Positions 13,920-30,535 of a stretch of 64,000 bases of DNA are shown here, in pieces. The notes under the pieces are model-generated. The model was given only the letters and a program-made list of their open reading frames with translations. It was not told the DNA's origin and did no database searches. Each line of letters opens with the position of its first letter. Position 1 is the first letter of the stretch. The translations under genes were made by a program, and so were the position numbers. This DNA is from a virus (Duplodnaviria; Caudoviricetes), in IMG/VR virus record IMGVR_UViG_3300028591_005215, positions 1 to 64,000 of that record, one strand, 5' to 3'.

Positions 13920-14129
13920 AATTAATTTCCTTTCTTTATTTATTTGTTTAACTTACGATAGCAAATATAATACTTTACTTTTGAATATGCAAATTTTTTG
14001 AAGACTTTTTTTTATTTTTTTTTCTCGTAATTTTATTTGGTAGTTTGGTTTATTTTTATTATATTTGTCTTAGGAAAAATAATATATAAAAAAATGATGT
14101 ACCAAATAAGGTACATCATTAACTTAAAA

Positions 14130-14275
14130 AGGTTGTTCCCCTTTGATAGGCTTGAGTCATCACTTCAAACCTAAATGCACCACCATTAATTTTAATTCGC
14201 CAATTAAAACTTTCATTTAACCTAATAGATAGGCTATTAGCCTAAATGATAGATGATGCAACTATTACCATTTTC
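14130..14275 (-). ncRNA. Putative structured ncRNA in its own promoter-terminator cassette
   Basis: Promoter at 14287-14294, no ORF, nested stems (GCATCATC/GGTGGTGC, TCATTTAG/TTAAATGA, TTTTAATT/AATTAAAA), terminator at about 14092-14120. Confidence 0.55.
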
Positions 14276-14337
14276 ATCTTCCTCTACAAATATATATAAT
14301 TAATTCATAAATTCAAAATAAATCACCACTTATTTTT

Positions 14338-14556
14338 TTATCCAACTTCCCAAACTTTTCCAACCCTTCCTTTATTGTCACGTATAACATATCCATACAT
14401 CCAAAAATAGTCAATAACTTTTACCTTTGTACCTTTTGGTATAGTATACTTGCCAAAACGTTCTACATCATATTTAAGACTGAACTCCATACCAATTTTT
14501 TGCTTCGCTTCATCCCTTTGATGAATTGCTCTATTATATTCGTAACCTAAAGCCAT
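14338..14556 (-). CDS. Hypothetical protein
   Basis: 72-aa ORF. Confidence 0.65.
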   Translation of the reverse strand: MALGYEYNRAIHQRDEAKQKIGMEFSLKYDVERFGKYTIPKGTKVKVIDYFWMYGYVIRDNKGRVGKVWEVG

Positions 14557-14562
14557 AGTATG

Positions 14563-14856
14563 CTATTTTTTTCTAAAAGTATAAATCTTATTACCTATAA
14601 GTAACTTAATCTTTTTCTTATATACCCTATATATTTCGATAGACGAGTCCGATTGGTCTAATGCGTCTATTGTTTGGATATGCTTTCCTAACATCTTATA
14701 CGCAAAGCAATTGCCTTCTACACCAATTTCATCAATACATAAGGTATCATTGGTAAACGTATAAGCAACTTTGCCATTTGTATAAGTGCCGTTTAGGGTG
14801 GCTGCTTTACACCCTAAAGACACGATAAACATTGATAGAATTATTAACTTTTTCAT
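14563..14856 (-). CDS. Putative secreted protein or lipoprotein
   Basis: N-terminal signal peptide with SLGC. Confidence 0.7.
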   Translation of the reverse strand: MKKLIILSMFIVSLGCKAATLNGTYTNGKVAYTFTNDTLCIDEIGVEGNCFAYKMLGKHIQTIDALDQSDSSIEIYRVYKKKIKLLIGNKIYTFRKK

Positions 14857-15374
14857 TATTTATTCTTATTTACTTTGCCATACATATTAAGACGATACCA
14901 AGCTTTAGATTTTTTGGTAGGGTAGTGGAAGCAATACGATGAACCATAAGGTGAAGGGTTATTATCGCAAACGATACCAATAGCATCTAAGTTTTTTAAT
15001 GTACCCTTTAAAAGGTGTGAGTAGTGGCAAATGGTATCTTTCTTTTCCAACTTATTCTTCAAAGAGCGAATCTTTTCTACAATGTAATCTGTTTCTTCTG
15101 AAACGACTGCGTTTTCAAAACCTTTATCGCCATAGGCTTCTTTCAGATACTTGTAAGCATTTGAACGGTGATGTGGTACGTGGAAACGATAGCCGTGTTT
15201 TCCAAGCGCATCAATTTCAATTCCGTGGTTTTCAAATTCACTAATTGTAGCTCGATAGAGAGAAGAATAGTGACAAACACTATCTTTCTTTTTATTGTCT
15301 GCGTTCATTACTTTGGCAATGATGTAAGCGATTTCTGCTACTACTACTGCGTTTTCTGTTCCAAATGTTTTCAT
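14856..15374 (-). CDS. Hypothetical protein with internal duplication
   Basis: KKD(S/T)xCHYS...FH.P..S.A repeated twice; GGAGG leader. Confidence 0.8.
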   Translation of the reverse strand: MKTFGTENAVVVAEIAYIIAKVMNADNKKKDSVCHYSSLYRATISEFENHGIEIDALGKHGYRFHVPHHRSNAYKYLKEAYGDKGFENAVVSEETDYIVEKIRSLKNKLEKKDTICHYSHLLKGTLKNLDAIGIVCDNNPSPYGSSYCFHYPTKKSKAWYRLNMYGKVNKNK

Positions 15375-15485
15375 TATTTATACCTCCTATGTTTAAATTA
15401 TTATTGTTTTTTATTGATGTTGGTAATATATAAAAACCAAACTAAAAAATGAAATATTTTCCTTGTTTTAACACTTATTTAACAT

Positions 15486-15914
15486 TTAATATTTATGTAT
15501 TTTATATACAATATGTGGGGTTTTTATATATTGTGTCTCTGACACAATAACAGCCTCAATTTCATATTTATACAATAATTGCAATTTTTGTAATGTAGTA
15601 GAAGAAACAGAAACGTTATTAGTTTCAATGCTTATTTCGTGTGCATTTTCATCCACATTGACAATACCTTTAATATATTCTTCATATGGTTCAATTATAT
15701 GATGATATTTTTTCAAATAAGCGCAAATAAATCTTTCCAAATGTTTGCGCCTATAGCCAAATAAGTCTTTTTCTTTACCGTGGAACACCCATAATATAGG
15801 AACTAAATCATTATCATTATTATCTTTATTAGGATGCTTGACTTCAAAAGTACCAACTTTGAAATCGTTAAAAATTACATCACCATTACGTTTAAAAATA
15901 AATTTATTTACCAT
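15486..15914 (-). CDS. Hypothetical cassette protein
   Basis: 142 aa. Confidence 0.75.
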   Translation of the reverse strand: MVNKFIFKRNGDVIFNDFKVGTFEVKHPNKDNNDNDLVPILWVFHGKEKDLFGYRRKHLERFICAYLKKYHHIIEPYEEYIKGIVNVDENAHEISIETNNVSVSSTTLQKLQLLYKYEIEAVIVSETQYIKTPHIVYKIHKY

Positions 15915-16117
15915 ATCAATTCTCCTTTATTTGTTACGTAAGCAAATATATAAAATTCAAACTAAAAAATGAAATGATTTAATAGCTTTAACACGACTTT
16001 AACACTTTATTATTAAAAATAAAATAATTGTTAATAAGTTTGGTAGTTTGGTTTGTTTTTAATATATTTGTCTTAGGAAAAAATAGTATATATAAGAAAA
16101 GGATAAGGTTTATCACC

Positions 16118-16432
16118 TTATCCTTTTTCTATTTTAGTAATTAATTTAATATAATTGCCTTCATATCCACCACGTGGAGCGTCATTACCTTTTACGTATT
16201 TAACCTTACAAAGGTCAAGCAAATCACATATAGCGTACATATAATTGTATTTTGATTTGTGTCTTGCAAATCTACCATAATAACCACACGGTCTAATAAT
16301 ATCTTTACCGTTAAAGTAACTACCATATTCTTGATTAGCTATATCAAATAATGTTTTAATTCCAACTATGCTTTTTGCATTTTTCAACTTTATTTGCTTG
16401 TTGATTCTCTTTATTAATGTACTTCGTTTCAT
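16118..16432 (-). CDS. Hypothetical phage protein (GNDAPRGG motif)
   Basis: 104 aa. Confidence 0.8.
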   Translation of the reverse strand: MKRSTLIKRINKQIKLKNAKSIVGIKTLFDIANQEYGSYFNGKDIIRPCGYYGRFARHKSKYNYMYAICDLLDLCKVKYVKGNDAPRGGYEGNYIKLITKIEKG

Positions 16433-16433
16433 A

Positions 16434-16637
16434 TTAACAACCTTTTTCGTGTAACAATAATGATAATTTTTCTATTCCAAAAAACTTTATAAGTTTATTT
16501 TTTGTTTCCTCAAGCATTAGTTTCCCATCATTATTAGGGTTACTAAGACTAATAATGCAATAGTCACCGTAATCTTTTAAATTATCAATCCTAAAACCAT
16601 CACGATACGCACTTTTAACACTTCTATATTTTTTCAT
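16434..16637 (-). CDS. Hypothetical protein
   Basis: 67 aa. Confidence 0.6.
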   Translation of the reverse strand: MKKYRSVKSAYRDGFRIDNLKDYGDYCIISLSNPNNDGKLMLEETKNKLIKFFGIEKLSLLLHEKGC

Positions 16638-16693
16638 AATAAAATTTCGTAATGAACCCCCACAAGTATTTAACTTGTGGGTAGTTTAAACTA

Positions 16694-17326
16694 TTAGTCA
16701 ATCATTAAGTAATCTTTAACTAAATCCCAATATTTTTCCAAAAATGAAGCTCTTTGAGTTCTTGTATGAAAAGCAAGAAAGTAGTATTCACAACTTGAAA
16801 TCATTGTAGAAATTTTATTGCAATTTCTGTATATTACATATTTTGTCTCGCTATTTTTCCATTCTTCATCAGTGATAACTCCACCAAAGTTTTCTATATC
16901 ATTAGCCATTATTTGACTAATTCTTGCCATTGCAATAGCTGATATGGCTTGTTTTCTGTTAGCAAAGTTTTTGTAACGGTTCTGATTATATTTTACATAT
17001 GTACAATATGCAATGCGTGAATCAGATTCAATAAAATACCCATTAGCAATTTTATTTTCCTTATCACTCCAAAACTCTTGCTCAACTTCTTCAACTATCA
17101 CTAAATCAAGTGCGTCAAGCTCTCCTTTAGAATAAAGCCTTCCTTCAGAAGTATAACATTCAGCGTGTTCGCCACCATCCTCTGTCTCAATCAATGCAAT
17201 AATAGGGAAATGGTAAACTTTTGCATCAGTGCAGATAATTCTCGCCTCAGCACCACTTCTTGTTTGAACTTTAGCACCTTTTTTATAAGCTTCTAAATTA
17301 AATGGTTTAATTACTTCTTTTTTCAT
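16694..17326 (-). CDS. 'KPF.L...TR.G' family, copy 2
   Basis: Paralogue of 1643-2293. Confidence 0.85.
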   Translation of the reverse strand: MKKEVIKPFNLEAYKKGAKVQTRSGAEARIICTDAKVYHFPIIALIETEDGGEHAECYTSEGRLYSKGELDALDLVIVEEVEQEFWSDKENKIANGYFIESDSRIAYCTYVKYNQNRYKNFANRKQAISAIAMARISQIMANDIENFGGVITDEEWKNSETKYVIYRNCNKISTMISSCEYYFLAFHTRTQRASFLEKYWDLVKDYLMID

Positions 17327-17554
17327 AATTTATTTTCCTTTCTTTATTTGTTTAACTTACGATAGCAAATATAACACTTTGCTTTTAAAAAAAGAAACAA
17401 TAATGGGTTTTTAACACTACTTTAACACTTTAAGGTTTTATTGGAATAAATGTTAATAAATTTTGTAGTTTGGAAATAATTTACTATATTTGTTTTAAGA
17501 AAAATAGTATATATAAGAAAAGGTAGGGTTGCTTTCCCTACCTTTTTTATTTTT

Positions 17555-18418
17555 TTACCATTCTACTCTTTCATCATCTTTTTGAATTATGAAAGGGTTG
17601 TTAATTTGTTTCGCATAGTGACCGTTTACGATAGTCTTTTTTGAAGGTTTATAATGTAATAGCACTACAACGTTCTTTGGGTCGTCTGCACGAACGTCAC
17701 TAATATCGCCATTCACTATTTCATATCCATTAAACTTTTTAGGTAGTGTATCATTTTTCTTCAAATCAAAAACGACTGCAACACGTGTACCATTTTCAAG
17801 TGCATATTTTGCGTCATTATCGTTATAACCATTATAAGACAAAGTATAGTCTATATTATTGTATTTTTTCTGTAGGTCTAAATATGCACGTACTTTTGTA
17901 TATTCATTAAAAGTAACGTTTGGGCGCAATTCAAGTATATTTTTACCTTGATATTTGAACATTAATGGAGATAAATCAGAAGTTCCGTTTAGACGAGCTA
18001 AAAATCGCAGTCCTAATTTATTTGCTTTTTCAAAAGCTTTGTCAAGTTCTTCTAAGTACATTTGCATAAACACATCACGGTTATATAAGAACAATTCAGT
18101 TCTGATACGTCTTACTCTATCTATAGGACTTTCAGTATTATATTTGTAAAGAACATTAATACCACTTCCCGCTAAGCAATTAATTTTGCAATGTTCAGCG
18201 TTTGGACACATAGTATGGTTGTCCAACTTATAAGGTGTAAGATAAAGAAGAAATTCCAATACACCTTTGTTGTTGAGTGTATGCTTTTGCTTTGATGTAG
18301 CATTAATCGGAACAAGTTCCTTAATTCCTATTGCTTTTGCTACCTTTGCGTGGGTAGTGTAAATCAAATTACCATAGAAGTTCTTCTTTTCTTCAATTGT
18401 CATATTAAATGTATTCAT
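17555..18418 (-). CDS. GP88-like protein (Cys-motif, radical-SAM-like), copy 1
   Basis: CPNAEHCKINCLAGSG, RLNGTSDL, F.EYTK, NGD.SD.R motifs. Confidence 0.75.
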   Translation of the reverse strand: MNTFNMTIEEKKNFYGNLIYTTHAKVAKAIGIKELVPINATSKQKHTLNNKGVLEFLLYLTPYKLDNHTMCPNAEHCKINCLAGSGINVLYKYNTESPIDRVRRIRTELFLYNRDVFMQMYLEELDKAFEKANKLGLRFLARLNGTSDLSPLMFKYQGKNILELRPNVTFNEYTKVRAYLDLQKKYNNIDYTLSYNGYNDNDAKYALENGTRVAVVFDLKKNDTLPKKFNGYEIVNGDISDVRADDPKNVVVLLHYKPSKKTIVNGHYAKQINNPFIIQKDDERVEW

Positions 18419-18505
18419 AACTTAACTAATTATTTGTTTGTTTTTAACGTAGGCAAATATAACCTTTTCTTTTTAATTATCAAACTTTTTTGTGTTAAAA
18501 AAGTG

Positions 18506-18835
18506 TTAATATTTAAACTTTAATCTTTTGCAAACATACATAGTAATAATTTTACTCTTACTTTTTGGTATACAATAATATAAACTGAATAATTCTGCTA
18601 TAACGTTATAAGGTGTTTCTTTGTCTTGTTTTACCTTATCATTAATTTTTGCTGCGTCAAATTTCTTTAGGAATAATTCTACAGCACGTTTTTCTCTGTT
18701 GGTTAGATATATCCATTTCAACGTCATACGTTTACGTTCACGTTCTTGCTTCTCATAGCAACACATACATAAACCACCGTATCTAATATACCTAACATCA
18801 TTAATTTCTTTATTACAATCAATACAATTTGCCAT
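18506..18835 (-). CDS. Small protein with N-terminal Zn-finger-like motif
   Basis: CxxC...CxCC. Confidence 0.7.
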   Translation of the reverse strand: MANCIDCNKEINDVRYIRYGGLCMCCYEKQERERKRMTLKWIYLTNREKRAVELFLKKFDAAKINDKVKQDKETPYNVIAELFSLYYCIPKSKSKIITMYVCKRLKFKY

Positions 18836-19014
18836 ATTTTTATTTCCTTTTTGATTACGTAGGCAAATATAGTCTTTTCAAATTAAAAAATGAAATGATT
18901 TAATGACTTTAACACGACTTTAACACTTTAATGAAAAAGTATAAAAAATATTAATAAGTTTGGTGGTTTGGAAAGAATTTAATATATTTGTTTTAGGAAG
19001 AATAATATATAATA

Positions 19015-19050
19015 AAAAAAAGACACTACTTATCACAAGCAATGTCTTTT
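19015..19050 (-). terminator. Terminator hairpin of the ncRNA operon; recurrent ATTGCTTG(T/C)GA(T)AAGTAGT family
   Basis: Hairpin plus T-run; relatives near 20848, 24778, 28612, 29983 and 33370. Confidence 0.7.
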
Positions 19051-19096
19051 AATTAGTTAAGTTATTTATTGTGTTCCGAGGTGTGGAACAAAGTTG

Positions 19097-19218
19097 TTCT
19101 TTCAAAGCGTGAAGGTGGTAAACGTATTTGTTTGACTATTTTATTATTTACGTTTATGCTTATCAAAGTGATTATCACTTAATGCACTATAGCCACCTTC
19201 ACATAGAAAGGAAATATG
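19097..19218 (-). ncRNA. Structured trailer RNA A (downstream of tRNA-like unit 1)
   Basis: 10-bp stem GTGAAGGTGG/CCACCTTCAC with an outer TTCCTTTC/GAAAGAA stem and internal hairpins. Confidence 0.55.
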
Positions 19219-19220
19219 TA

Positions 19221-19326
19221 GTTGATGGTATTGGATTTGCACCAATGCAGATACCTAAGTATCAGAATGTTCACCACATTCCCCATTTTGTTATACTGCT
19301 ATTATCAGTACTATGGAAACCACCAA
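19221..19326 (-). ncRNA. Non-canonical tRNA-like RNA, unit 1
   Basis: Acceptor TTGGTGGT/ACCATCAA, T arm ATTGG-TGCAAAT-CCAAT, anticodon arm GAATG-TGGTGAA-CATTC. Confidence 0.8.
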
Positions 19327-19339
19327 AATTCTTTATTAA

Positions 19340-19446
19340 ACCTTCTTTATTATAAAGGGGAATGGCTATAAAGCCCCAAATAAAATGCGTGTAGCAAGTA
19401 AGACAATATAACACATTCCCCACATCGAAAGGAGGTATTAAATATG
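19340..19446 (-). ncRNA. Structured trailer RNA B (downstream of tRNA-like unit 2)
   Basis: Stems GGGGAATG/CATTCCCC and ACCTCCTTT/AAAGAAGGT; same architecture as trailer A. Confidence 0.5.
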
Positions 19447-19447
19447 G

Positions 19448-19551
19448 GTTGGTAATGGTGGGTTCGAACCACCGCAGATACCTAAGTATCAGAATGTTCA
19501 CCACATTCCCCATTTTCTTTGCCCAATAATGCAAGCTATGGAAATTACCAA
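19448..19551 (-). ncRNA. Non-canonical tRNA-like RNA, unit 2 (followed by encoded CCA at 19445-19447)
   Basis: Acceptor TTGGTAAT/ATTACCAA, canonical T arm GGTGG-TTCGAAC-CCACC. Confidence 0.85.
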
Positions 19552-19554
19552 ATT

Positions 19555-19660
19555 GTTGGTTGTGATGGGTTCAAACCACCGCAGATACCTAAGTATCAGA
19601 ATGTTCACCACATTCCCCTTTTTGCTATCACTTCAAAATAGTGACTAAGGAAACAACCAA
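19555..19660 (-). ncRNA. Non-canonical tRNA-like RNA, unit 3
   Basis: Acceptor TTGGTTGT/ACAACCAA; compensatory D stem CCTT/AAGG. Confidence 0.8.
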
Positions 19661-19663
19661 ATT

Positions 19664-19772
19664 GTTGGTTAGATAGGATTTGCACCTATGCAGACTTTAA
19701 GTAAAGTCAGAATGTTCACCACATTCCCCATTTTGTTATACTGCTAAATATCAGTACTATGGAACTAACCAA
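19664..19772 (-). ncRNA. Non-canonical tRNA-like RNA, unit 4
   Basis: Acceptor TTGGTTAG/CTAACCAA; variable arm GACTTT/AAAGTC. Confidence 0.8.
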
Positions 19773-19786
19773 AAATATCTTAATTT

Positions 19787-19923
19787 AGGGAAGTAGCTAT
19801 TTTTTAAGACTTTTGCCATTTCGTCTTGTTTCATCACCAAGATGTCGGTTAAATGGTGATGCAACTACTTTTATTAGAATCTTAATTAATCATATATTTA
19901 AATAAGATTGCTGTAACTTCCCT
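19787..19923 (-). ncRNA. Structured leader RNA of the ncRNA operon
   Basis: Closing stem AGGGAAGT/ACTTCCCT; internal CATCACCA/TGGTGATG, AAGAC/GTCTT and AATCTTA/TAAGATT. Confidence 0.5.
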
Positions 19924-19947
19924 TGTTTTTATTTCTTAATTACATTG

Positions 19948-19978
19948 CAAATATATAATAATTAATTTAAAAATCAAA
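19948..19978 (-). promoter_or_regulatory. Promoter for the ncRNA operon
   Basis: TTTG-N19-TATATTTG on the - strand. Confidence 0.75.
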
Positions 19979-19998
19979 CATTCTTTTGTTAAATGATG

Positions 19999-20256
19999 TT
20001 AAGCTTTGGTGTAATATTCAGCTTTCTTTTCTTCGCTGAGGCTTGAATACCATTCATCGTATTCTTTTTGCATTCCATCGTAATTTTCATCTTTAAAGCG
20101 ATAAAAATCAGGATTGGAAGACGTTTTATCAAAGTGAAAGTTTTCAAGTAACATTTTAACAAAAAATTCCTCTTTGGTTTCATAAGTCCATTGTGTTGTG
20201 CTATGTCTTTCACTACCATATAATGAACCTCTCCAATATTCAACTTCAAAAGTCAT
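19999..20256 (-). CDS. Hypothetical protein
   Basis: 85 aa; preferred over the overlapping 19989-20249 frame. Confidence 0.65.
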   Translation of the reverse strand: MTFEVEYWRGSLYGSERHSTTQWTYETKEEFFVKMLLENFHFDKTSSNPDFYRFKDENYDGMQKEYDEWYSSLSEEKKAEYYTKA

Positions 20257-20357
20257 ATATGTAATATTTAATTAATATTCTTTTCGTTATTTCTAACAGT
20301 GCAAATATATAAATAATATTGCAAATAACAAAATGCTAAGTTAATCTTTAACATTCG

Positions 20358-20663
20358 TTAACCTTTGTATTCCAAAAGGCTAACGTTTATTCCAAGAGGG
20401 TTATATGCAGTACCATCTTCCATATAATCAACTGCTCTTGCGCATAGTTTGAAATACTCTATAGGAAGATTGCTACGGTTCTTAAAACCTTCAAACATCC
20501 CTTCAAACAACTCCCATTCATAATAATTACGAACATAAGCATCATTCAAGATGATTATAGTTTCGTCAGTGTTAGGACTTGCAAGTACAATTTGTACCTT
20601 GCGGTTATGATTTACAAAATCACTCTTAATTACATCAGTGATGTTCTTTTTAATTAATGCCAT
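20358..20663 (-). CDS. Hypothetical cassette protein
   Basis: 101 aa; AAGGAG leader. Confidence 0.75.
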   Translation of the reverse strand: MALIKKNITDVIKSDFVNHNRKVQIVLASPNTDETIIILNDAYVRNYYEWELFEGMFEGFKNRSNLPIEYFKLCARAVDYMEDGTAYNPLGINVSLLEYKG

Positions 20664-20892
20664 ATTTTTTATCTCCTTTTTGATTACATTGGCAAATATA
20701 TAAAAATCAAATTAAAAAATGAAATAATATAATCACTTTAACATTACTTTAACAGTTACCCACAATTATTCTAAAAAATGTTAGCAGATTTCATAGTTTG
20801 GAAATAATTTATTATATTTGTCTTAGGAAAAATAATATATAGCAAAAAAGGCACTGCTTATCACAAGCAATGCCCTTTTAATTATCCCCATT

Positions 20893-21141
20893 TTATTCAA
20901 TATTCGCTAACTTAAATTTACCATTGTCTTGAACTTCCCACGTAAGAACAACGGTGGTTTGAAGCTCCCCAATATCGAACGTTACAAGCGTACTAAGGTC
21001 GCCATCCTCTGCAACTTCCATATCGGCAAATCTAATGCCATCAGTTTGCATTTTATTTGTAACGTTTTCTTTGATATACACCGTAGACCCTAAAAATAGG
21101 TGACTAAGGTGTTTTACTAATCTTTCGTGAAATGTTTCCAT
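20893..21141 (-). CDS. Hypothetical protein
   Basis: 82 aa. Confidence 0.7.
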   Translation of the reverse strand: METFHERLVKHLSHLFLGSTVYIKENVTNKMQTDGIRFADMEVAEDGDLSTLVTFDIGELQTTVVLTWEVQDNGKFKLANIE

Positions 21142-21144
21142 AGA

Positions 21145-21465
21145 CTATTTCCAATTAATGTATGCTACTAATTCTTTAATAACATCAAAACCAAGTTCTA
21201 TAAGGCAAATCCATTCATCAGCTTCTTCACAGTTGATTTTAATAGTGTGTACCATAGTCGGAGAAATACCGTCTTGTTTGATTTTATCAATGGTAACTAA
21301 ATTTCTTTCACCACAATCATCAAGATAAGCAAATTCAACGGGTTCATCAGCATAACTAATTTGGAGTTCACCTTTTTCCTTTAGGTCTGTTTTAAGACTC
21401 GTTAATAACTGAATTTCAGCTTTTTCAATATTATCAGTTAAAATTGCATACTTTGTACTGTTCAT
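21145..21465 (-). CDS. Hypothetical protein
   Basis: 106 aa. Confidence 0.75.
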   Translation of the reverse strand: MNSTKYAILTDNIEKAEIQLLTSLKTDLKEKGELQISYADEPVEFAYLDDCGERNLVTIDKIKQDGISPTMVHTIKINCEEADEWICLIELGFDVIKELVAYINWK

Positions 21466-21546
21466 ATTTAATTCCTTTCTTTTTTGTTATAATGCTAATA
21501 TATAAAATTCATTTTAAACTACGAAATATTTTAAGACTTTTTAACA

Positions 21547-21729
21547 TTATATTTCCACTTCATCAGCCAAATCGTGGCTAAGAATATAATCAGAACATCT
21601 GTCTAAATTAATTTCAAGACTTTCATCTTTATTATATAAGTTAAGGAAAAAATATTCAATAATATTATCCATAACACAAATATACTGATAGTTCTTTTTA
21701 AATTCAGAAATAAAATCTTTTTTATTCAT
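21547..21729 (-). CDS. Hypothetical protein (start taken at MNKKDF)
   Basis: The upstream in-frame extension runs through the palindrome, so the shorter start is preferred. Confidence 0.6.
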   Translation of the reverse strand: MNKKDFISEFKKNYQYICVMDNIIEYFFLNLYNKDESLEINLDRCSDYILSHDLADEVEI

Positions 21730-21802
21730 ATGTATTTTTATATAAATGTATAAGTACTTAAATAAGTACCTATACATTGTTTATTTTATTATATTTGCTA
21801 TT

Positions 21803-22072
21803 TTAATCGTGTAAAAATGTTGGTTCAACTTTTAATAAATAATAAAACTTTGAATCAGTTTCATCCGATACATAAATTGAATTATTAGTTTCCTCTATAT
21901 AAAGTTCATTTTCGTTATGAAGCAACCCAATCAGTGTGGCAGCATTAATATAGCTTTCGTGTTGGCACTTCATAGCTTTAATGGCTTGTTCTTCTGATTT
22001 ATATGCTTCTATAACCTCAAAGGTGACTTCACCATCAAAACAATATTCTTTAGTTAATGTGTAAATTTTCAT
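21803..22072 (-). CDS. Hypothetical protein
   Basis: 89 aa. Confidence 0.7.
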   Translation of the reverse strand: MKIYTLTKEYCFDGEVTFEVIEAYKSEEQAIKAMKCQHESYINAATLIGLLHNENELYIEETNNSIYVSDETDSKFYYLLKVEPTFLHD

Positions 22073-22074
22073 AC

Positions 22075-22353
22075 TTACTTTCCTTTCATATAGTTTTTAA
22101 AGTCCTCAATAAACTCTTCCACTGACGTATAGCTTGCTTGAATACCTCGTACTAAGATGTTTCTATAGTCATCTTTAACTTTAGTGTCTTCTAAACATCT
22201 ACGAAAATACTCGCAAGCATTATCTATAAAGGCATCAGTGCGAGTGTACTCGATATTTGCGTCTTCTCTTTTCTTTGAACGGGCAGACAAAATTGGCTCA
22301 CCCTCAAAAAAGTATAATTTCTCTGGTGCTTCCTTTGCTTTCATATCAATCAA
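22075..22353 (-). CDS. Hypothetical phage protein (EAPEK...IEYTRTDAFI family)
   Basis: 92 aa. Confidence 0.75.
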   Translation of the reverse strand: MIDMKAKEAPEKLYFFEGEPILSARSKKREDANIEYTRTDAFIDNACEYFRRCLEDTKVKDDYRNILVRGIQASYTSVEEFIEDFKNYMKGK

Positions 22354-22366
22354 TCATCAAATAATT

Positions 22367-22708
22367 TTAAATTAAGCCACGATAATCGTAGTTATGTTCA
22401 TTTAACCAATCATATACTTTGGCTAAATCATCTCCCCATATTGGGTATGGTAGAAATAATTTATTTTCAGAAATAGCGTCTGAAAAAGCCCTAAATTCAT
22501 CTGTTTCCAATTCAAAGTTTGAGTGATAATAAAAGCCCGCTTTTGTATATAATTCTATTTTTTCTTCTTCGGTCATTGAAGACAGTGGGCGAAAGCAATG
22601 ATTATCATTTTCTTTGGATTCAGTGAATATATATTGCAATACATCGTTGCTAAGATGAAGCTCTCTTGCTCTTTTAAGAGCCTCTTTATATTTCTCTTCG
22701 TAGTCCAT
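22367..22708 (-). CDS. Hypothetical phage protein (RPLSSMTEEE...DYRGLI family)
   Basis: 113 aa; modules shared with 5132-5575 and 5578-7383. Confidence 0.75.
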   Translation of the reverse strand: MDYEEKYKEALKRARELHLSNDVLQYIFTESKENDNHCFRPLSSMTEEEKIELYTKAGFYYHSNFELETDEFRAFSDAISENKLFLPYPIWGDDLAKVYDWLNEHNYDYRGLI

Positions 22709-23145
22709 AGTTTCTACCTCCTCTTATTTTTCAACTTTTATTTCAACAAAACTTTCACCTCCTAATCCATGAGCAGGACAAGGATAAGAATTTCCTGATT
22801 TTTTACAAAAATGATATAAACTACATTCACTACAAAGTAAGAAGTCATCTGTAAGTTTATATATTTTATCATCTATTGTTATAGTTATATTTTTCTGTTC
22901 CATATTATTATAGTTTTTCTTTAAATTTATATTATTATTTCCTTTTTGATTACATAGGTAAATATAACCTTTTCAAATTAAAAAATGAAACTATTTAATG
23001 ACTTTAACACAACTTTAACATTTAACACTATTAATCTAAAAATTATTAATAAGTTTGGCTGTTTGGTTTGTTTTTATTATATTTGTTTTAGGAAAAATAA
23101 TATGTAAGAAATAAGGTAGGGATATTTTCCCTACCTTTTATAATA

Positions 23146-23802
23146 TTAATCAAGCATAAAATAGTCACTAACCAAATCACGATATTTTTCTAAGAATAAG
23201 TCTCTTTGGGCTGCTGTATGAAAAGCAAGAAAATGGTAATCACAATATACAGCTGTTACTCCTATTCTATTTTTATGATTGCACGACCTAAATATCACAT
23301 ACTTCCAATTATCGTCTGTCCATTCTTCATCAGTAACAACACCGCCAAAGTTCTTAATATCATTAGCCATTATTTGGGTAATCTTTGCCATTGCTCTTGC
23401 TGATTTAGCTTGTTTCTCTGTTTTAAATAAGCAATAATCATCAACAGTTCTTTTCACGAAACAATAGTTTGTTATAGAATCTATAGAGATACCATACCCT
23501 TCAATATCTACTTTTTCTTTATCACTCCAAAAGTCTTCTATTACTTCTACTTCTTCAACTATTACTAAGTCATTATCACTAATAGGACCTTTATAATAAA
23601 TTCTACCTTCTGTAGTATAAGATTGAACGGCTTCACTGCCATCCTCTAACTTAATCAACCCAATGATAGGAAAATTTGGCTTTTTAACATCAGTGTATAC
23701 AATTTTAACTTTATGACCGTCCCTTGTTTGGGTCCTTGCTCGGGCTTTAGCACTATTATTATATACTTTTAAGTCAAATGGCTTAATTACTTTTTTCTTC
23801 AT
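23146..23802 (-). CDS. 'KPFDL...TRDG' family, copy 3
   Basis: Paralogue of 1643-2293. Confidence 0.85.
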   Translation of the reverse strand: MKKKVIKPFDLKVYNNSAKARARTQTRDGHKVKIVYTDVKKPNFPIIGLIKLEDGSEAVQSYTTEGRIYYKGPISDNDLVIVEEVEVIEDFWSDKEKVDIEGYGISIDSITNYCFVKRTVDDYCLFKTEKQAKSARAMAKITQIMANDIKNFGGVVTDEEWTDDNWKYVIFRSCNHKNRIGVTAVYCDYHFLAFHTAAQRDLFLEKYRDLVSDYFMLD

Positions 23803-23896
23803 AATTTATTTTCCTTTCTTTATTTGTTTAACTTTGACAAATATAATGATTTGCTTTTAAATGCACAATTTTTTTGCTACTTTTTTATTTAATTAT

Positions 23897-24253
23897 TTAC
23901 CCTTCAATATCATTATACTTATTGAAAACAAGTCTAAGAATTCTTTCTTCAATAATCATATCCGAATTAATGTCATCCACGTCAATAGTATATTCATCAC
24001 CGTTATCATCAGAAGTAACGATAAGACAATACTTATCAGAGTTACCTGGGTCAATCATCACAGCCTTTGTCGTGTATGTTCCTTCCATATCAAGATAAGT
24101 AAAACAGTAGTCTTCCTGTTCATCCTCTGGAATAAGGATTTTACCTGTCTTTTGTAAAAGGTATACGATTGTGTCAGTTATCTTATTGTGAAAATTTATC
24201 ACCTTTGCTTGTTCCTCTTGAAAATCATTAAATGAATTAAATAAATCTTTCAT
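23897..24253 (-). CDS. Hypothetical acidic protein
   Basis: 118 aa. Confidence 0.75.
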   Translation of the reverse strand: MKDLFNSFNDFQEEQAKVINFHNKITDTIVYLLQKTGKILIPEDEQEDYCFTYLDMEGTYTTKAVMIDPGNSDKYCLIVTSDDNGDEYTIDVDDINSDMIIEERILRLVFNKYNDIEG

Positions 24254-24314
24254 AATTACTTTTACTTTTAATTGTTATTACTCTTGTTTGTTTTTTTTTA
24301 TTTGATATTGATTA

Positions 24315-24587
24315 TTAATCATCAAAATCAGATATAAACTCTGTAACGTTTAGAAATTCAAGTGTATCATTTGTATAGTCTTCTATTTCGTCATTAAATT
24401 CTTCAATATTAGAGTATATCCAATGGTGCATAGAATTAATAATTTGGTCATCATTTGAAGGCTCATCAACGAGATATACAAGCACATCATGCTGACAATA
24501 GAGACTTTCCATATAAAATGCAAATTCAACTTGTGCAATTTCGCAATCCATTCCATTTAGAATATTTACAACTTGTTCCTTTGTCAT
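24315..24587 (-). CDS. Hypothetical protein, paralogue of 2337-2597
   Basis: Shared termini. Confidence 0.8.
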   Translation of the reverse strand: MTKEQVVNILNGMDCEIAQVEFAFYMESLYCQHDVLVYLVDEPSNDDQIINSMHHWIYSNIEEFNDEIEDYTNDTLEFLNVTEFISDFDD

Positions 24588-24855
24588 AATTTATTTCCTT
24601 TCTTTATTTGTTTAACTTACGTCAACTAATATATAAAAATCAAACTAAAAAACAAAGCATTATTTGCTTTTTAACTCTGATTTAACATTTACTATTAAAT
24701 TTAAAATAAACGTTAAATTGTTTGGTAGTTTGGAAAGAATTTATTATATTTGTCTTAAGAAAAATAATATATAGCAAAAAAGTGCTATCTATCATCAGAC
24801 AACACTTCTTGACAACATTAAACAATTAAAACTAAACATTATGAAAGTAGATTTG

Positions 24856-24929
24856 TGGGCTCGGAGGGGTTTGAACCCACGACCTTCAGATTATGAGTCT
24901 GCTGCTCTGACCAACTGAGCTACGAGCCC
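24856..24929 (-). tRNA. tRNA with CAU anticodon (Ile2-like; elongator Met not excluded), no encoded CCA
   Basis: GGGCTCGTAGCTCAGTTGGTCAGAGCAGCAGACTCATAATCTGAAGGTCGTGGGTTCAAACCCCTCCGAGCCCA folds as a canonical cloverleaf. Confidence 0.95.
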
Positions 24930-24939
24930 CTATAATGGT

Positions 24940-25038
24940 AATGAGGATAATCTATATCATTTGTAACTGATAGCTTTTAGATTTAATAATCAATTTGCAA
25001 CTTGTTTAGAAAATCTTTAAGCAAAGATTATCCTCATT
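24940..25038 (-). ncRNA. Putative structured RNA 5' of the tRNA
   Basis: Perfect 14-bp closing stem AATGAGGATAATCT/AGATTATCCTCATT enclosing two weaker hairpins; no ORF. Confidence 0.4.
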
Positions 25039-25190
25039 GATAGTGCTTTTTTATTATTATATTAATATTAAAATATTTATATATTATAATAATATATTAT
25101 ATAATTAATATTATTAATATAATATTTTATTTATATTGCAAATATATAATTTTATTTTTAAATTTATAAATGTTTTAACACTTTTAACAT

Positions 25191-25418
25191 TTAGATAAAT
25201 TGTTCAAAATAATCAACAACATCTTTAATATATTTCTTATAGTATGGTTGATTATCCATACACCATAATTTTAATTCTTCACGATTTTTCATTGGCGGAT
25301 AACAAGACTGCCCACTCTGTATCTGTATGAATAGTGGTTTAAGCTCATTAATGAAGTCGCCTACAGTCCAACCTTCCCAAATCTCTTTTTCAAAATTGAT
25401 TTTTTTCTTCTTTGCCAT
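25191..25418 (-). CDS. Hypothetical phage protein (IWEGWTV family)
   Basis: 75 aa. Confidence 0.8.
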   Translation of the reverse strand: MAKKKKINFEKEIWEGWTVGDFINELKPLFIQIQSGQSCYPPMKNREELKLWCMDNQPYYKKYIKDVVDYFEQFI

Positions 25419-25512
25419 ATCTTTTTTTCCTTTCTTTGTTTAACTTTGACTAATATAATGATTTGCTTTTAATATACCAAATAAATTGTGTTAATAAATG
25501 TTAATGATATTA

Positions 25513-25806
25513 TTATTTAACACATTTGAAAACGGATAGAACAGCATAACCACCTTTCAGTTTAATCTTAATATGGAATTTCTGTCCGTCAAGATTAATC
25601 TTTACACCAAACGGTCTTTTGGTTGAGGCTACAAGTGATGCACCGAATTGAGGAAATTGATTATTGATTGTCTTGATAATTACATCACCATACTGGTTAA
25701 TGTCCTCATACTCGCTTTCATCACGCCACCTGTCATACAGATTAAAAAAACAGTTACCAACCTTTTCATTGTTCACGATTGATGTTAATTTCTCGATAGT
25801 TGTCAT
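25513..25806 (-). CDS. Hypothetical phage protein (LYDRW.DE.EYED family)
   Basis: 97 aa. Confidence 0.8.
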   Translation of the reverse strand: MTTIEKLTSIVNNEKVGNCFFNLYDRWRDESEYEDINQYGDVIIKTINNQFPQFGASLVASTKRPFGVKINLDGQKFHIKIKLKGGYAVLSVFKCVK

Positions 25807-26002
25807 AATTACTTTTCCTTTCTTTCTTTGTTTAACTTTGACTAATATAACATTTTCTTTTTAAACTACAAAACTTTTTCCAAACTTTTTTTATTTTTTT
25901 TTCTTGCTTTTTTATTTGGTAGTTCGGATTATTTTTATTATATTTGTCTTAGGAAAAATAACATAATTAAAAAAAGGTAACATTATATGTTACCTTCTCT
26001 TA

Positions 26003-26236
26003 TTAAATAAACCAAATAATCACATTATCACCACATGCGCCACAAATTGTATCATTATGCTTTATAGTGCTTAAATCCATTTCGCTAATGCTAAAAGCTT
26101 GTTCACCATCTTTTAATTGGTTTGTAAGCCATTCACGTGCGTCCTCCCACTTTGATTTTCTTAGGTGAGATGTATCAATGCCCTTTGATTCATACCAATT
26201 CGCATTAATTGAAAGTACTATTACTTTTGTTACCAT
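26003..26236 (-). CDS. Hypothetical protein
   Basis: 77 aa. Confidence 0.65.
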   Translation of the reverse strand: MVTKVIVLSINANWYESKGIDTSHLRKSKWEDAREWLTNQLKDGEQAFSISEMDLSTIKHNDTICGACGDNVIIWFI

Positions 26237-26237
26237 A

Positions 26238-26432
26238 TTACAAATAATCTTTTATGTAGTCCCACAATTCATTTTCTTCCTCGTCACAAAACGATTCAAG
26301 TTGTTCACCTTCTATTTCAGTTATAAGTATATTAGTAATTTCATCATATACGGCAATACCTTTGCTATCAGTCCCATCAGTGTTAAAATGGAAATAATCT
26401 TTTAAGATGAAATTATAAAGCTTACGTTCCAT
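26238..26432 (-). CDS. Hypothetical acidic protein
   Basis: 64 aa. Confidence 0.65.
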   Translation of the reverse strand: MERKLYNFILKDYFHFNTDGTDSKGIAVYDEITNILITEIEGEQLESFCDEEENELWDYIKDYL

Positions 26433-26558
26433 ATCTTATTTACTTTTTTTGTTTAACTTACGTGAACTAATATATTAATTTCTTTTTAATTACAAAGTGT
26501 TATTTAAGGTTTTAACACTTATTTAACACTTTGCAATATATGTACTTAATTAAGTACC

Positions 26559-27092
26559 TTAAAATAGTCGTAGAACACTTGCACCTTCCATACTTAAACT
26601 TTTAATCATTTCACCAACTTTCAAGTTTTCAAGTCTTTTATCATTCCAACCAAAGTTAGATAAAGCTAAAGGTGAATAACAAGCCACATTAGTCACACCG
26701 TGACCACCACAATAACGTGCATCATTAATCAGCGTATACACTTTCATACCATATTTTACGTAAAACGTATCTTCATAGCAATCAGTTATTGAAGCTTCAT
26801 CTTTTGGTACAATATTTTCTTGCTTGATAATTTGATAATAGTCGCTGAATATTGCACTATATACTTCTTCATATACAGACCGCAAAGTGTATGGGCTAAC
26901 TTCATTTATATCATTAATTTCAAGAATACGTTTTCCCTCAAATTTAAGACGCAGTGTAAAACCACATTCTTCAAGAGAGACAATGCAGTCCGATAATTCC
27001 ATATGTTCAACATTATGATTTTTCATCAAAGTGATGATACCACTTTTAATTTTATTATTGACTGCCTTAATATCAATTTCGTAATTCTTCAT
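26559..27092 (-). CDS. Hypothetical protein, paralogue of 13404-13919
   Basis: 177 aa. Confidence 0.85.
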   Translation of the reverse strand: MKNYEIDIKAVNNKIKSGIITLMKNHNVEHMELSDCIVSLEECGFTLRLKFEGKRILEINDINEVSPYTLRSVYEEVYSAIFSDYYQIIKQENIVPKDEASITDCYEDTFYVKYGMKVYTLINDARYCGGHGVTNVACYSPLALSNFGWNDKRLENLKVGEMIKSLSMEGASVLRLF

Positions 27093-27541
27093 AATTAATT
27101 TTCCTTTCTTTATTTATTTAACTTTGTCTAATATAATAAATTCTTTTTAATTATAAAACTTTTTTGGCAATTATTTTATTGCATTTAATATGTTTTTTAA
27201 TGCAAACATTTCTTCGGGGGTTAAAAAAATGGAATGGTGAAAGCCCTCACTATCAGTCTTATAAATAATAAAATTATTAGACTTCTTGTCTGCAACTACT
27301 TCTACATTTCTTATCATCATAATATTTACTTTTATTTGTTTTACATAGGTAAATATAACTTTTTCAAATTAAAAAATGAAATGATTTAATGGTTTTAACA
27401 CGACTTTAACATTTGAATTAAAAACTAAAATAAATGTTAAATTATTTGGCAGTTTGGAAGTAATTTAATATATTTGTTTTAGGAAAAATAATGTTTAAGA
27501 AATAAGGTAGAGTTATTTTCCCTACCTTATTATGAACAAAT

Positions 27542-28108
27542 CTATTTAAATAAACCACCAATTTTTAATTTTCCTTCTTTATCTTTTAATACAATACAGT
27601 CCGAATCAGTTCTTATTGCTTTATATACTGTATTGCAAATGCTTGCACAAGTTCCCTCCCCTAATTGTTCAGCGTCATTGATAGCTTGCATTATGAACAA
27701 TTTATATTGTAATTTTTGTGCGTAGTTACTACTAATATTATATTTTTTGAAAATTTCTAAAAGCTTTTCAATCATATCATCAGTATACTTATAATCATCA
27801 AGAATATAATCGCCATAATTTGTACATAAACGAATATTATAGTCCAAATTAGGAAAAATACCACCTTTAAGGATTATATCCACGTAAGCGTCAATGTGTT
27901 GATTAATATTACGAAGTGTACGTGAAAATGCACGTCTTGTTAAGATAACAGTATCATCAAGAATTTCATTATCTGTTTTTTTAAACCCTTCTTGAACACC
28001 TTGATTAATAGCGTTCTTTAGATTATCCATAAACTCTATATCATTTTTACCCAATTCAATAGCATATATACTAATAGCGTTCTTTAATTTTTCCATATTT
28101 ATTTTCAT
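27542..28108 (-). CDS. Hypothetical protein
   Basis: 188 aa. Confidence 0.75.
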   Translation of the reverse strand: MKINMEKLKNAISIYAIELGKNDIEFMDNLKNAINQGVQEGFKKTDNEILDDTVILTRRAFSRTLRNINQHIDAYVDIILKGGIFPNLDYNIRLCTNYGDYILDDYKYTDDMIEKLLEIFKKYNISSNYAQKLQYKLFIMQAINDAEQLGEGTCASICNTVYKAIRTDSDCIVLKDKEGKLKIGGLFK

Positions 28109-28111
28109 TCT

Positions 28112-30327: not shown

Positions 30328-30535
30328 AATAGTAAATTATTTAATGTTGTTGTCATTTCTTTTAACATCAGCTAATATAATACTTTACTTTTGAATATGC
30401 AAATTTTTAAGCAACTTTTTTTTTATTTTTTTTCTTGCTTTTTTATTTGGTAGTTTGGTTTATTTTTATTATATTTGTCTTAAGAAAAATAATACCCAAT
30501 AAAAAAGTAGGGATATTTCCCTACTTTTTACTTTA

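What the first reader, a model, noticed from the sequence alone, without database searches (positions are those of the whole stretch)
19015..19978. A roughly 900-nt protein-free operon of at least seven structured RNA modules
A consensus promoter (19948-19978) and a terminator (19015-19050) bracket, in transcription order: a multibranch leader RNA (19787-19923), tRNA-like units 4, 3 and 2, trailer RNA B, tRNA-like unit 1, trailer RNA A, and a small hairpin (TGTTCC/GGAACA, about 19072-19090). It occupies a slot in the cassette array exactly as protein genes do. Inference: a polycistronic ncRNA precursor cut into separate RNAs at the tRNA-like units.
Basis: partly seen in the sequence, partly recalled or inferred. 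Interest (0 to 1): 0.75.

Follow-up and report, generated by a model that had tools for sequence, protein, structure and literature searches.

The report
Phage operon of tRNA-shaped non-coding RNAs
A rumen jumbo phage carries a promoter-to-terminator unit that makes no protein but four copies of a new tRNA-shaped RNA that cannot decode, plus other folded RNAs; related giant phages keep the same RNA family, often next to the enigmatic GOLLD RNA.

Summary
On the minus strand, 19015-19978 has a Bacteroidota-type promoter, a strong terminator and no conserved ORF.

It encodes a folded leader, four about 105-nt tRNA-like units, two related trailer RNAs and a small hairpin.

The units are a real, undescribed RNA family:
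- A model built only from the four copies finds about 45 homologues in related 295-412 kb herbivore-gut phages.
- 26 of 36 base pairs show compensatory changes, and conserved G-U pairs fix the strand.
- Seven of eight near-complete relatives carry 2-4 copies.

The family derives from class-II tRNA-Tyr. It keeps the acceptor and T arms and the flanks of genuine tRNAs of these phages (U-1, A73, C74). The D arm carries an extra hairpin, and a fixed 5-6-nt loop (GGURA or UUCGUG) replaces the anticodon loop, so it cannot decode.

In the large relatives the units lie just 5' of a GOLLD-like RNA. This genome has none.

Both trailers start with a sequence complementary to the Shine-Dalgarno-plus-AUG region of the phage's early cassette genes.

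Cutting by tRNA-processing enzymes is likely but untested. Function is unknown.

This scan has noted similar non-decoding tRNA look-alikes in Firmicutes phages; this is a different family.

The parts
19948..19978 (-). Bacteroidota-type promoter: -33 TTTG (19975-19978), 19-nt spacer, -7 TATATTTG (19948-19955)
   Evidence: Sequence. The motif is enriched 30 against 0.8 expected and heads the other minus-strand cassettes.
19788..19922 (-). Leader RNA: a 7-bp closing stem (GGGAAGU/ACUUCCC) around three hairpins, giving a cloverleaf-like four-way junction
   Evidence: MFE -34.5 kcal/mol, z = -5.0, 0 of 200 shuffles as good. No homologue found by blastn. It varies more than the units in natural variants.
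19664..19772 (-). tRNA-like unit 4, first in transcription order
   Evidence: Cloverleaf fold; 117.5 bits with R1
19555..19660 (-). tRNA-like unit 3
19448..19551 (-). tRNA-like unit 2, with the canonical T loop GGUUCGAACC
19329..19447 (-). Trailer RNA B: an anti-(SD+AUG) 5' segment followed by a long hairpin
   Evidence: MFE z = -3.2. Same architecture as trailer A.
19427..19446 (-). Anti-TIR element CAUAUUUAAUACCUCCUUUC, at the start of trailer B
   Evidence: Identical 20-21 nt directly after the last unit in phage G012, where it is single-stranded in the MFE fold. Complementary to the TIRs of cassette genes.
19221..19326 (-). tRNA-like unit 1
   Evidence: 126.7 bits with R1; folds
19095..19220 (-). 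Trailer RNA A. It starts with CAUAUUUCCUUUCU (19205-19218), followed by a 10-bp stem enclosing two hairpins.
   Evidence: MFE z = -4.6. In variant L081 a U-A pair becomes U-G, which fits only the minus-strand RNA, and the loop carries an 8-nt indel.
19072..19090 (-). Small hairpin UGUUCC/GGAACA
19018..19050 (-). Intrinsic terminator: 15-pair stem followed by a T run

Best explanation
This is a non-coding RNA transcription unit of a roughly 280-kb jumbo phage from the herbivore gut, whose host is probably a member of the Bacteroidota. A precursor of about 920 nt runs from the promoter (-7 box at 19948-19955) to the terminator (19018-19050).

Its main products are four copies of a tRNA-Tyr-derived RNA that cannot decode. 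Each copy keeps the acceptor stem, T arm, variable arm and the processing flanks of a real tRNA. Its D arm carries an inserted hairpin, and its anticodon arm is a 7-bp stem capped by an invariant GGUGA loop.

Inferred: host RNase P, together with 3' trimming or RNase Z and the CCA-adding enzyme, cuts the precursor at each unit. This would release stable tRNA-shaped RNAs of about 105 nt. It would also give the two trailer RNAs defined 5' ends that expose an anti-Shine-Dalgarno/anti-AUG segment.

Inferred, weaker: the tRNA mimics act in bulk on a tRNA-binding partner. That could be as a decoy for a host factor that targets tRNA or tRNA-Tyr, or as a companion of GOLLD-type RNA assemblies as in relatives. 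The trailers may pair with the translation start regions of the phage's own early cassette genes.
For: Transcription unit:
- A promoter of the local family and a terminator bracket the region.
- No Pfam match to the ORFs inside it, and those ORFs are broken or re-framed in the 97%-identical contig L081.

The units are an RNA family:
- Model R1, built from the four copies only, finds 116-140-nt homologues at 37-72 bits in related phage contigs.
- On 42 distinct sequences 96.5% of cells pair, against 32-45% when partners are slid. 26 of 36 pairs have changes on both sides, and 0 of 500 shuffles reach this.
- G-U pairs kept in 41 of 42 and 37 of 42 sequences fix the strand. The minus-strand fold is also more stable than the plus-strand fold.
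- Seven of eight clade genomes that are at least 90% complete carry 2-4 copies.

Origin from tRNA:
- The best non-family hits of R1 and R2 in the genomes searched are 88-90-nt RNAs; the four checked with ARAGORN are tRNA-Tyr(GTA).
- One unit in G013 keeps a CUGUAAA loop.

Non-decoding:
- The loops are GGUGA, GGUAA or UUCGUG.
- ARAGORN and Rfam's tRNA model do not call the units.

Processing signals:
- U-1, A73 and C74 are invariant in the family, and genuine tRNAs of these phages have the same flanks.

Natural variation: the units changed at about 1.4% of positions, the flanking genes at about 4%.

Expression (weak): contigs from RNA libraries of three studies cover the leader and units.

Trailers:
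- The same 20-21 nt follow the last unit in G012.
- Predicted duplexes with early-cassette start regions are -11.9 and -9.9 kcal/mol, against -5.7 and -4.7 for other genes (p about 1e-9).
- SD-like motifs sit upstream of 62% of cassette genes but of only 8.5% of ORFs across the whole genome.
Against: - No ends, strand or sizes of the RNAs were measured. The RNA-library data are contigs, DNA carry-over is not excluded, and some contigs bridge units and the upstream gene. Unprocessed precursor, or DNA, is therefore present.
- The genome encodes no CCA-adding enzyme, RtcB or Ro60 that could point to a pathway.
- Leader and trailers have no detectable homologues apart from the 20-nt element, so their status as functional RNAs rests on folding scores and one near-identical variant.
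- The anti-SD match partly reflects composition, and in this phage's trailer B the segment is partly paired within the trailer.
- No GOLLD-like RNA exists in the 80%-complete genome.
Confidence: 0.65

Rival explanations
1. The tRNA-like units are only punctuation. They would be cutting signals for RNase P and RNase Z, and the functional products would be the RNAs between them: leader and trailers here, GOLLD-like and other modules in relatives.
For: In relatives a unit directly precedes the GOLLD-like RNA, a second tRNA-like type and other structured modules. Here both trailers start right after a unit.
Against: - Units stand in direct tandem with about 3-5 nt between them and no cargo: units 4-3-2 here, three in G012, and tandem pairs or runs in L048, L057, L078 and L080.
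- The inserted D-arm hairpin and the fixed GGURA or UUCGUG loops are conserved across the clade, yet RNase P and RNase Z do not need them.
Confidence: 0.15
2. The roughly 0.9-kb transcript works uncut as one large ornate RNA, a counterpart of GOLLD or ROOL with embedded tRNA-like domains.
For: - Its size is like that of GOLLD.
- Relatives have a GOLLD-like RNA in the same operon, and GOLLD can embed tRNAs.
- RNA-library contigs bridge neighbouring modules.
Against: - No GOLLD or ROOL match was found even at E = 10 in the region, or at E = 1 in the whole genome.
- Copy number and order of modules differ between lineages.
- The units carry the flanks of independent tRNA genes.
Confidence: 0.1
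3. The units are working tRNAs with unusual decoding, for example Tyr or suppressor tRNAs.
For: They have a cloverleaf with acceptor, T and variable arms and descend from tRNA-Tyr. Relatives encode many odd tRNAs, including ones with a CTA anticodon.
Against: - The loops have 5-6 nt and no U33 or anticodon, and they are fixed as GGURA or UUCGUG across the clade.
- No tRNA caller accepts the units.
Confidence: 0.03
4. The region is translated. This could be from the ORFs at 19271-19534 (-) or 19128-19355 (+), or from plus-strand mini-ORFs behind the strong SD+ATG sequences at 19427-19446 and 19205-19218.
For: - ORFs of 75-87 aa exist.
- On the plus strand the two elements read as SD, spacer and ATG.
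- A promoter-like element at 18959-18990 points into the unit on the plus strand.
Against: - The ORFs have TTG starts and no family match, and they are not conserved in L081.
- The ATGs are followed by stops after 0 and 2 further codons here, and by an unrelated antisense ORF in G012.
- The plus-strand promoter-like element is followed about 30 nt later by the terminator hairpin.
- Conserved G-U pairs fit only the minus strand.
Confidence: 0.03

Closest known systems
Phage tRNA islands that accompany GOLLD and ROOL RNAs (Weinberg 2009 and 2017, own knowledge; Kretsch et al. 2025, PMC12286853)
   Same: Phage-encoded RNA-only clusters of tRNAs and large structured RNAs. In relatives the units lie between a tRNA-Met and a GOLLD-like RNA, the same order reported for GOLLD env-38, which sits downstream of a Met-tRNA.
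   Different: This window and genome have no GOLLD or ROOL match. The literature describes genuine tRNAs near GOLLD, not a conserved non-decoding tRNA-like family. The hosts here are probably Bacteroidota, and the GOLLD matches of relatives are below Rfam's cut-off.
Murine gammaherpesvirus 68 TMERs: a viral tRNA-like RNA followed by pre-miRNA hairpins (own knowledge; see PMC4337559)
   Same: A virus-encoded cluster of non-decoding tRNA-like RNAs, each directly followed by a hairpin RNA whose 5' end is set by tRNA 3' processing.
   Different: TMERs are eukaryotic RNA polymerase III units cut by tRNase Z and feed the miRNA pathway. There is no sequence relation. Cleavage here is untested.
Class II tRNA-Tyr of the same phage clade
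   Same: Shared acceptor, T and variable arms, shared flanks (U-1, A73, C74), and the best cross-hit of the family models.
   Different: The units have an inserted D-arm hairpin, a 7-8-bp stem with a 5-6-nt loop in place of the anticodon arm, and often G55 in the T loop (UGCAAAU).
E. coli 3'ETS-leuZ, a regulatory RNA made from a tRNA 3' trailer (Lalaouna et al. 2015, own knowledge)
   Same: The RNA segment directly 3' of a tRNA-shaped element carries a base-pairing sequence and would be released by tRNA processing.
   Different: 3'ETS-leuZ sponges the small RNAs RyhB and RybB. Here the predicted partners are mRNA start regions, and nothing has been tested.
Phage T4 stable RNAs C and D, encoded in the tRNA gene cluster (own knowledge)
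   Same: Phage-encoded stable non-tRNA RNAs that are co-transcribed and processed with tRNAs, and whose function is still unknown.
   Different: No sequence or structure relation was tested. T4 has single copies, not tandem arrays.
Bacterial Y RNAs (YrlA) with Ro60
   Same: Non-coding RNAs that mimic part of a tRNA; phage examples exist.
   Different: In Y RNAs the ends form the Ro-binding stem and the acceptor is closed by a loop. Here the ends form the acceptor stem. The genome has no TROVE (Ro60) gene and no Rfam match.

Membership tests
Decoding tRNA (Rfam RF00005) | Acceptor stem plus a 5-bp T stem with a 7-nt T loop | tested here: met
   Helices 1 and 6 pair in 99.7% and 100% of cells, with compensatory changes.
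Decoding tRNA (Rfam RF00005) | 5-bp anticodon stem with a 7-nt loop carrying U33 and an anticodon | tested here: not met
   A 7-bp stem with a GGUGA loop in all four copies. Relatives have GGUAA or UUCGUG.
Decoding tRNA (Rfam RF00005) | Recognised by ARAGORN, or scores at least 29 bits with RF00005 | tested here: not met
   (no tRNA match in 18800-20200 even at E = 10), and for G012 and G013.
Decoding tRNA (Rfam RF00005) | Simple D arm: 3-4-bp stem with a 7-11-nt loop | tested here: not met
   The D stem encloses an extra 5-6-bp hairpin.
tRNA-Sec (bacterial 8/5 fold) | 8-bp acceptor stem plus 5-bp T stem | tested here: inconclusive
   An eighth pair, U-1:A73, is invariant. But U-1 and A73 are also the usual flanks of ordinary tRNAs of these phages.
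tRNA-Sec (bacterial 8/5 fold) | UCA anticodon, 6-bp D stem with 4-nt loop, G73 | tested here: not met
GOLLD RNA (RF02032) | Match to the conserved 3' domain model | tested here: not met
   No match in the region at E = 10 or in the genome at E = 1. Relatives match at 45-75 bits, below the 150-bit cut-off, next to their units.
ROOL RNA (RF03087) | Match to the family model | tested here: not met
   The control search for this family rang nowhere, so the test is weak.
tmRNA | tRNA-like domain plus a tag-peptide reading frame | tested here: not met
   Relatives have separate genuine tmRNAs.
Bacterial Y RNA with Ro60 | A Ro60 (TROVE) gene in the genome, and RNA ends that form the Ro-binding stem | tested here: not met
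   No TROVE gene. The RNA ends form the acceptor stem.
tRNA-linked ncRNA precursors (TMER, mascRNA and 3'ETS types) | A tRNA-shaped element directly 5' of a second structured RNA | tested here: met
   Unit 2 is followed by trailer B and unit 1 by trailer A. The same layout occurs in relatives.
tRNA-linked ncRNA precursors (TMER, mascRNA and 3'ETS types) | Cleavage at the tRNA-shaped element by RNase P or RNase Z | not testable with these tools
   Only assembled contigs of RNA libraries were available.
New family: tRNA-Tyr-derived non-decoding tRNA-like RNA of herbivore-gut jumbo phages | UUUGG...CCAAC ends, D stem with inserted hairpin, ACAAA-UGGG junction, 7-8-bp arm with a GGURA or UUCGUG loop, variable-arm hairpin, T arm | tested here: met

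The most novel reading that the evidence does not exclude
The tRNA-Tyr-derived mimics are made in bulk to engage a tRNA-binding partner. They could act as decoys against a host defence that attacks tRNA-Tyr or tRNA acceptor ends, or as the natural companions or cargo of GOLLD-type RNA cages. The trailers released by their processing could be trans-acting anti-Shine-Dalgarno RNAs that switch off the only SD-led gene set of a phage whose other genes are SD-less.
Probability: 0.2. Interest if true: 0.85.

Novelty: new variant of a known kind. Interest (0 to 1): 0.68.

Why it matters
- It adds a well-supported, uncatalogued structured RNA family to giant phages of the rumen and hindgut.
- It shows that a phage lineage has turned a tRNA into a non-decoding RNA and keeps it in several tandem copies.
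- The family is co-transcribed with GOLLD-like RNAs in relatives. GOLLD forms RNA cages of unknown use, so this gives a concrete candidate partner to test.
- The anti-Shine-Dalgarno trailers, together with an SD-led early gene set in an otherwise SD-less genome, offer a handle on how translation is steered in hosts that normally ignore the Shine-Dalgarno signal.

Tried and rejected
Searches that found nothing:
- blastn of the region against 50,697 phage records gave no match.
- The exact 22-23-nt anticodon-arm motif had no match in IMG/VR. In metagenome contigs it hit only one near-identical variant, L081.
- blastn of the leader, the trailers and the second RNA cassette against all fetched loci gave only chance-level hits.
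- A family motif searched in 185,579 species genomes hit one 5.4-kb contig of a horse-faeces MAG, probably phage DNA, so no host copy was found.
- RtcB, TROVE and CCA-adding enzyme families are absent from the genome.
- The anti-TIR 20-mer in IMG/VR, apart from G012, hit only unrelated phages, where its complement is a real start region.
- Full-text literature searches for tRNA-like RNAs in megaphages, or next to GOLLD, found no description.

RNA-library contigs:
- No contig covered 19016-19246, and contig ends did not coincide. I draw no conclusion from this.

The upstream 85-aa protein (19999-20256):
- It is syntenic with the units only here and in G013 (36% identity) and is absent from four other unit-bearing genomes.
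- It has 5 relatives among 1.8 billion representatives.
- I rejected it as an obligate partner and did not model its structure.

Full report
**Setting.** The window is the first 64 kb of a 279,749-bp IMG/VR phage record. The record is 30.6% G+C and about 80% complete. It has only two canonical tRNAs, Met-CAT at 24855-24929 and Gln-CTG. Its large terminase is only 22-33% identical to those of isolated phages. Near-identical DNA occurs in sheep and cattle gut metagenomes of about eleven studies.

The host is probably a member of the Bacteroidota, for two reasons:
- The cassettes are headed by TTTG, 17-22 nt, then TATATTTG, which is the Bacteroides promoter consensus (own knowledge). This pattern occurs 30 times in the window against 0.8 expected.
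- Only 8.5% of the phage's ORFs have a Shine-Dalgarno-like 4-mer upstream, against 4.5% at random positions.

**Observation.**
- Promoter: -33 TTTG at 19975-19978 and -7 TATATTTG at 19948-19955.
- Terminator: a 15-pair stem at 19050-19018 followed by a T run.
- Leader: 19788-19922 folds into a closing stem around three hairpins, z = -5.0.
- Units: four repeats at 19664-19772, 19555-19660, 19448-19551 and 19221-19326.
- Trailers: two RNAs of similar build follow units 2 and 1, z = -3.2 and -4.6.
- A small hairpin precedes the terminator.
- The whole unit folds better on the minus strand than on the plus strand, -259 against -228 kcal/mol.

One qualification. The upstream 85-aa gene (19999-20256) ends 20 nt before the promoter and has no terminator. 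RNA-library contigs bridge it to the leader. Read-through into the RNA unit is therefore likely.

**Not coding.** The ORFs inside the region have TTG or GTG starts and no Pfam match. Contig L081 is 97% identical and carries a 1-nt deletion, a 1-nt insertion and an 8-nt insertion in the region. These cut the 87-aa minus-strand ORF to 55 aa and change the frame and ends of the 75-aa plus-strand ORF. The RNA helices stay intact, and one U-A pair becomes U-G.

**The units are a real RNA family.**
- Each copy folds on its own into the same cloverleaf:
  - an 8-bp acceptor stem, then UU;
  - a 4-bp D stem enclosing an extra hairpin;
  - a 7-bp stem with a GGUGA loop;
  - a variable-arm hairpin;
  - a 5-bp T stem with a 7-nt loop.
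- Model R1 was built only from these four copies. It finds 116-140-nt matches at 37-72 bits in contigs of related phages. That gives 41 distinct sequences.
- On 42 distinct sequences, 96.5% of cells pair, against 32-45% when partners are slid by 1-3 columns. 26 of 36 pairs change on both sides, and no shuffle reaches the observed values.
- G-U pairs conserved in 41 of 42 and 37 of 42 sequences show that the modelled strand is the RNA strand.
- With the wider model R2, seven of eight clade genomes that are at least 90% complete carry 2-4 copies.
- Rfam 15 has no matching family. Three full-text searches found no description.

**What the units are.**
- In the genomes searched, the best non-family hits of R1 and R2 are 88-90-nt RNAs, and the four checked with ARAGORN are tRNA-Tyr(GTA).
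- One unit of phage G013 still has a CUGUAAA loop.
- The family keeps U at -1, A73 and C74. The same flanks occur in 177 genuine tRNAs of these phages: T at -1 in 144, and C after the discriminator followed by an A-rich trailer in most.
- The units cannot decode. The anticodon loop is replaced by a fixed GGURA or UUCGUG loop while the stem below it covaries. ARAGORN and the Rfam tRNA model reject them.
- Both loop classes occur in the same tandem arrays in relatives. This phage, G012 and G013 have the GGURA class.

**Operon architecture in relatives.**
- In the 295-412-kb relatives the order is promoter, leader, an unusual tRNA-Met(CAT), one to several units, sometimes other structured modules, then a GOLLD-like RNA.
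- RF02032 matches at 45-75 bits (E from 1e-9 to 1e-17, full model length, below the 150-bit cut-off) in all eight loci examined.
- Other loci hold a unit followed by a second tRNA-like type and a terminator.
- G012 (401 kb) has a promoter, a leader, three tandem units and one trailer.
- G013 has a homologue of the 85-aa gene followed by two units.
- This genome has no GOLLD or ROOL match.
- RNA-only operons built around this family are therefore conserved, while the accompanying modules vary.

**Trailers.**
- Trailer B begins with CAUAUUUAAUACCUCCUUUC. The same 20-21 nt follow the last unit of G012, where they are unpaired ahead of a hairpin and a terminator-like stem.
- Trailer A begins with CAUAUUUCCUUUCU.
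- Their complements read as Shine-Dalgarno, spacer and AUG. On the plus strand, however, stops follow after 0 or 2 codons here, and an unrelated frame follows in G012.
- SD-like motifs are concentrated in the minus-strand cassette genes at 9-34 kb. 62% of them carry one, with the consensus AAAGAAAGGAAAU..AUUAUG.
- The trailer 5' segments are predicted to pair with these start regions far better than with other genes or than shuffled segments do: -11.9 and -9.9 against -5.7 and -4.7 kcal/mol, p about 1e-9.
- This fits trailer RNAs that act on the early genes' start regions. Part of the signal is composition, and nothing has been tested.

**Expression.** Contigs assembled from four metatranscriptome runs of three studies cover the leader, the units and the neighbouring genes. 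They give no strand and no ends, and DNA carry-over cannot be excluded. This is weak support only. In these variants the units changed at about 1.4% of positions, the upstream genes at about 4% and the leader at about 4.7%.

**Mechanism.**
- Shown: a promoter-terminator unit with no conserved ORF; a conserved, strand-specific, tRNA-Tyr-derived non-decoding RNA in tandem copies with genuine tRNA flanks; and trailers that carry a conserved anti-start-region segment.
- Inferred: RNase P and 3' processing cut at each unit, giving stable tRNA-shaped RNAs and trailers with defined ends.
- Function is open.
  - The tandem copies argue for a bulk role.
  - The descent from tRNA-Tyr recalls defences that destroy tRNA-Tyr, which phages counter with their own tRNA-Tyr (PMC11555353).
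  - The link to GOLLD recalls the proposal that its cages hold tRNAs (PMC12286853).
  - I put 0.65 on the operon-plus-processing reading and about 0.2 on the decoy, cage-partner and anti-SD ideas taken together.

**Verdict.** It is a new RNA family and a new variant of the known theme of virus-encoded tRNA look-alikes linked to other non-coding RNAs. Earlier notes of this scan describe comparable non-decoding tRNA look-alikes beside GOLLD in Firmicutes phages. Those are different families on other DNA, and I did not check them.

Noticed in passing
window 14036-33108, + strand (e.g. 18959-18990): Fourteen copies of a conserved element lie just beyond the terminator of minus-strand cassettes. 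On the plus strand each reads as a full Bacteroidota-type promoter (TTTGGTAGTTTGG...TATATTTG), followed about 30 nt later by the cassette's terminator hairpin. They may be tiny convergent transcription units or insulators. G012 has a similar convergent promoter-like site after its RNA operon.
   Followed up: partly
window 9000-34000, - strand: The early cassette genes share a strong SD-like start region (AAAGAAAGGAAAU..AUUAUG; 62% have an SD-like 4-mer). Genome-wide only 8.5% of ORFs do. This is an SD-led gene set in an otherwise SD-less phage.
   Followed up: partly
L048 10510-11377; also L022, L051, L055, L078, L080, L163, L170: GOLLD-like RNAs in herbivore-gut megaphages score 45-75 bits, below Rfam's 150-bit cut-off. 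At least two carry a tRNA inside them (L048 10969-11041 and L078 3428-3499). They are probably a divergent GOLLD subgroup that Rfam's threshold misses.
   Followed up: partly
loci L024-L080 of related phages: Many tRNAs of normally short-armed species (Lys, Thr, Trp, Asn, Gln, Met, Val, Pro, Arg) are 80-93 nt long with long variable arms. tRNAs with a CTA anticodon, possible amber suppressors, are common.
   Followed up: partly
L021 1410-1500 (-), L025 1622-1700 (+): A second tRNA-like type follows a unit in several relatives. It has an 8-bp acceptor-like stem and a GGUUCGAUUCC-type T arm but no anticodon arm.
   Followed up: no
L167 1386-1500 (-) (phage G013): One family member keeps a CUGUAAA loop (Tyr anticodon GUA) on a shifted stem. 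It looks like an intermediate between tRNA-Tyr and the non-decoding units.
   Followed up: partly
window 14092-14294 (-) and 24700-25146 (-): Two further RNA-only cassettes lie in the same array. One is a structured RNA of about 150 nt between a promoter and a terminator. The other holds tRNA-Met behind a long AT-rich leader with a hairpin.
   Followed up: no
window 19999-20256 (-): An 85-aa protein gene sits directly upstream and has no terminator. A 36%-identical homologue sits upstream of the units in G013. It has few relatives anywhere; one is a 2298-aa protein matched over six stretches.
   Followed up: partly
window 38624-42574, 47002-49083, 56087-57412, 59604-62300: The phage encodes a BNR-repeat (sialidase-like) protein of 1316 aa, a TonB-dependent receptor with a plug domain, an RlaP-type RNA-repair nucleotidyltransferase, and a UvrD-like helicase interrupted by an intein-like Hint domain.
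   Followed up: no
L009 1309-3525 (genome 84445-86661): Most relatives match only residues 1 to about 376-402 of the large-terminase ORF, which is at least 739 aa long. The gene may be interrupted or extended here, for example by an intein or an intron.
   Followed up: no
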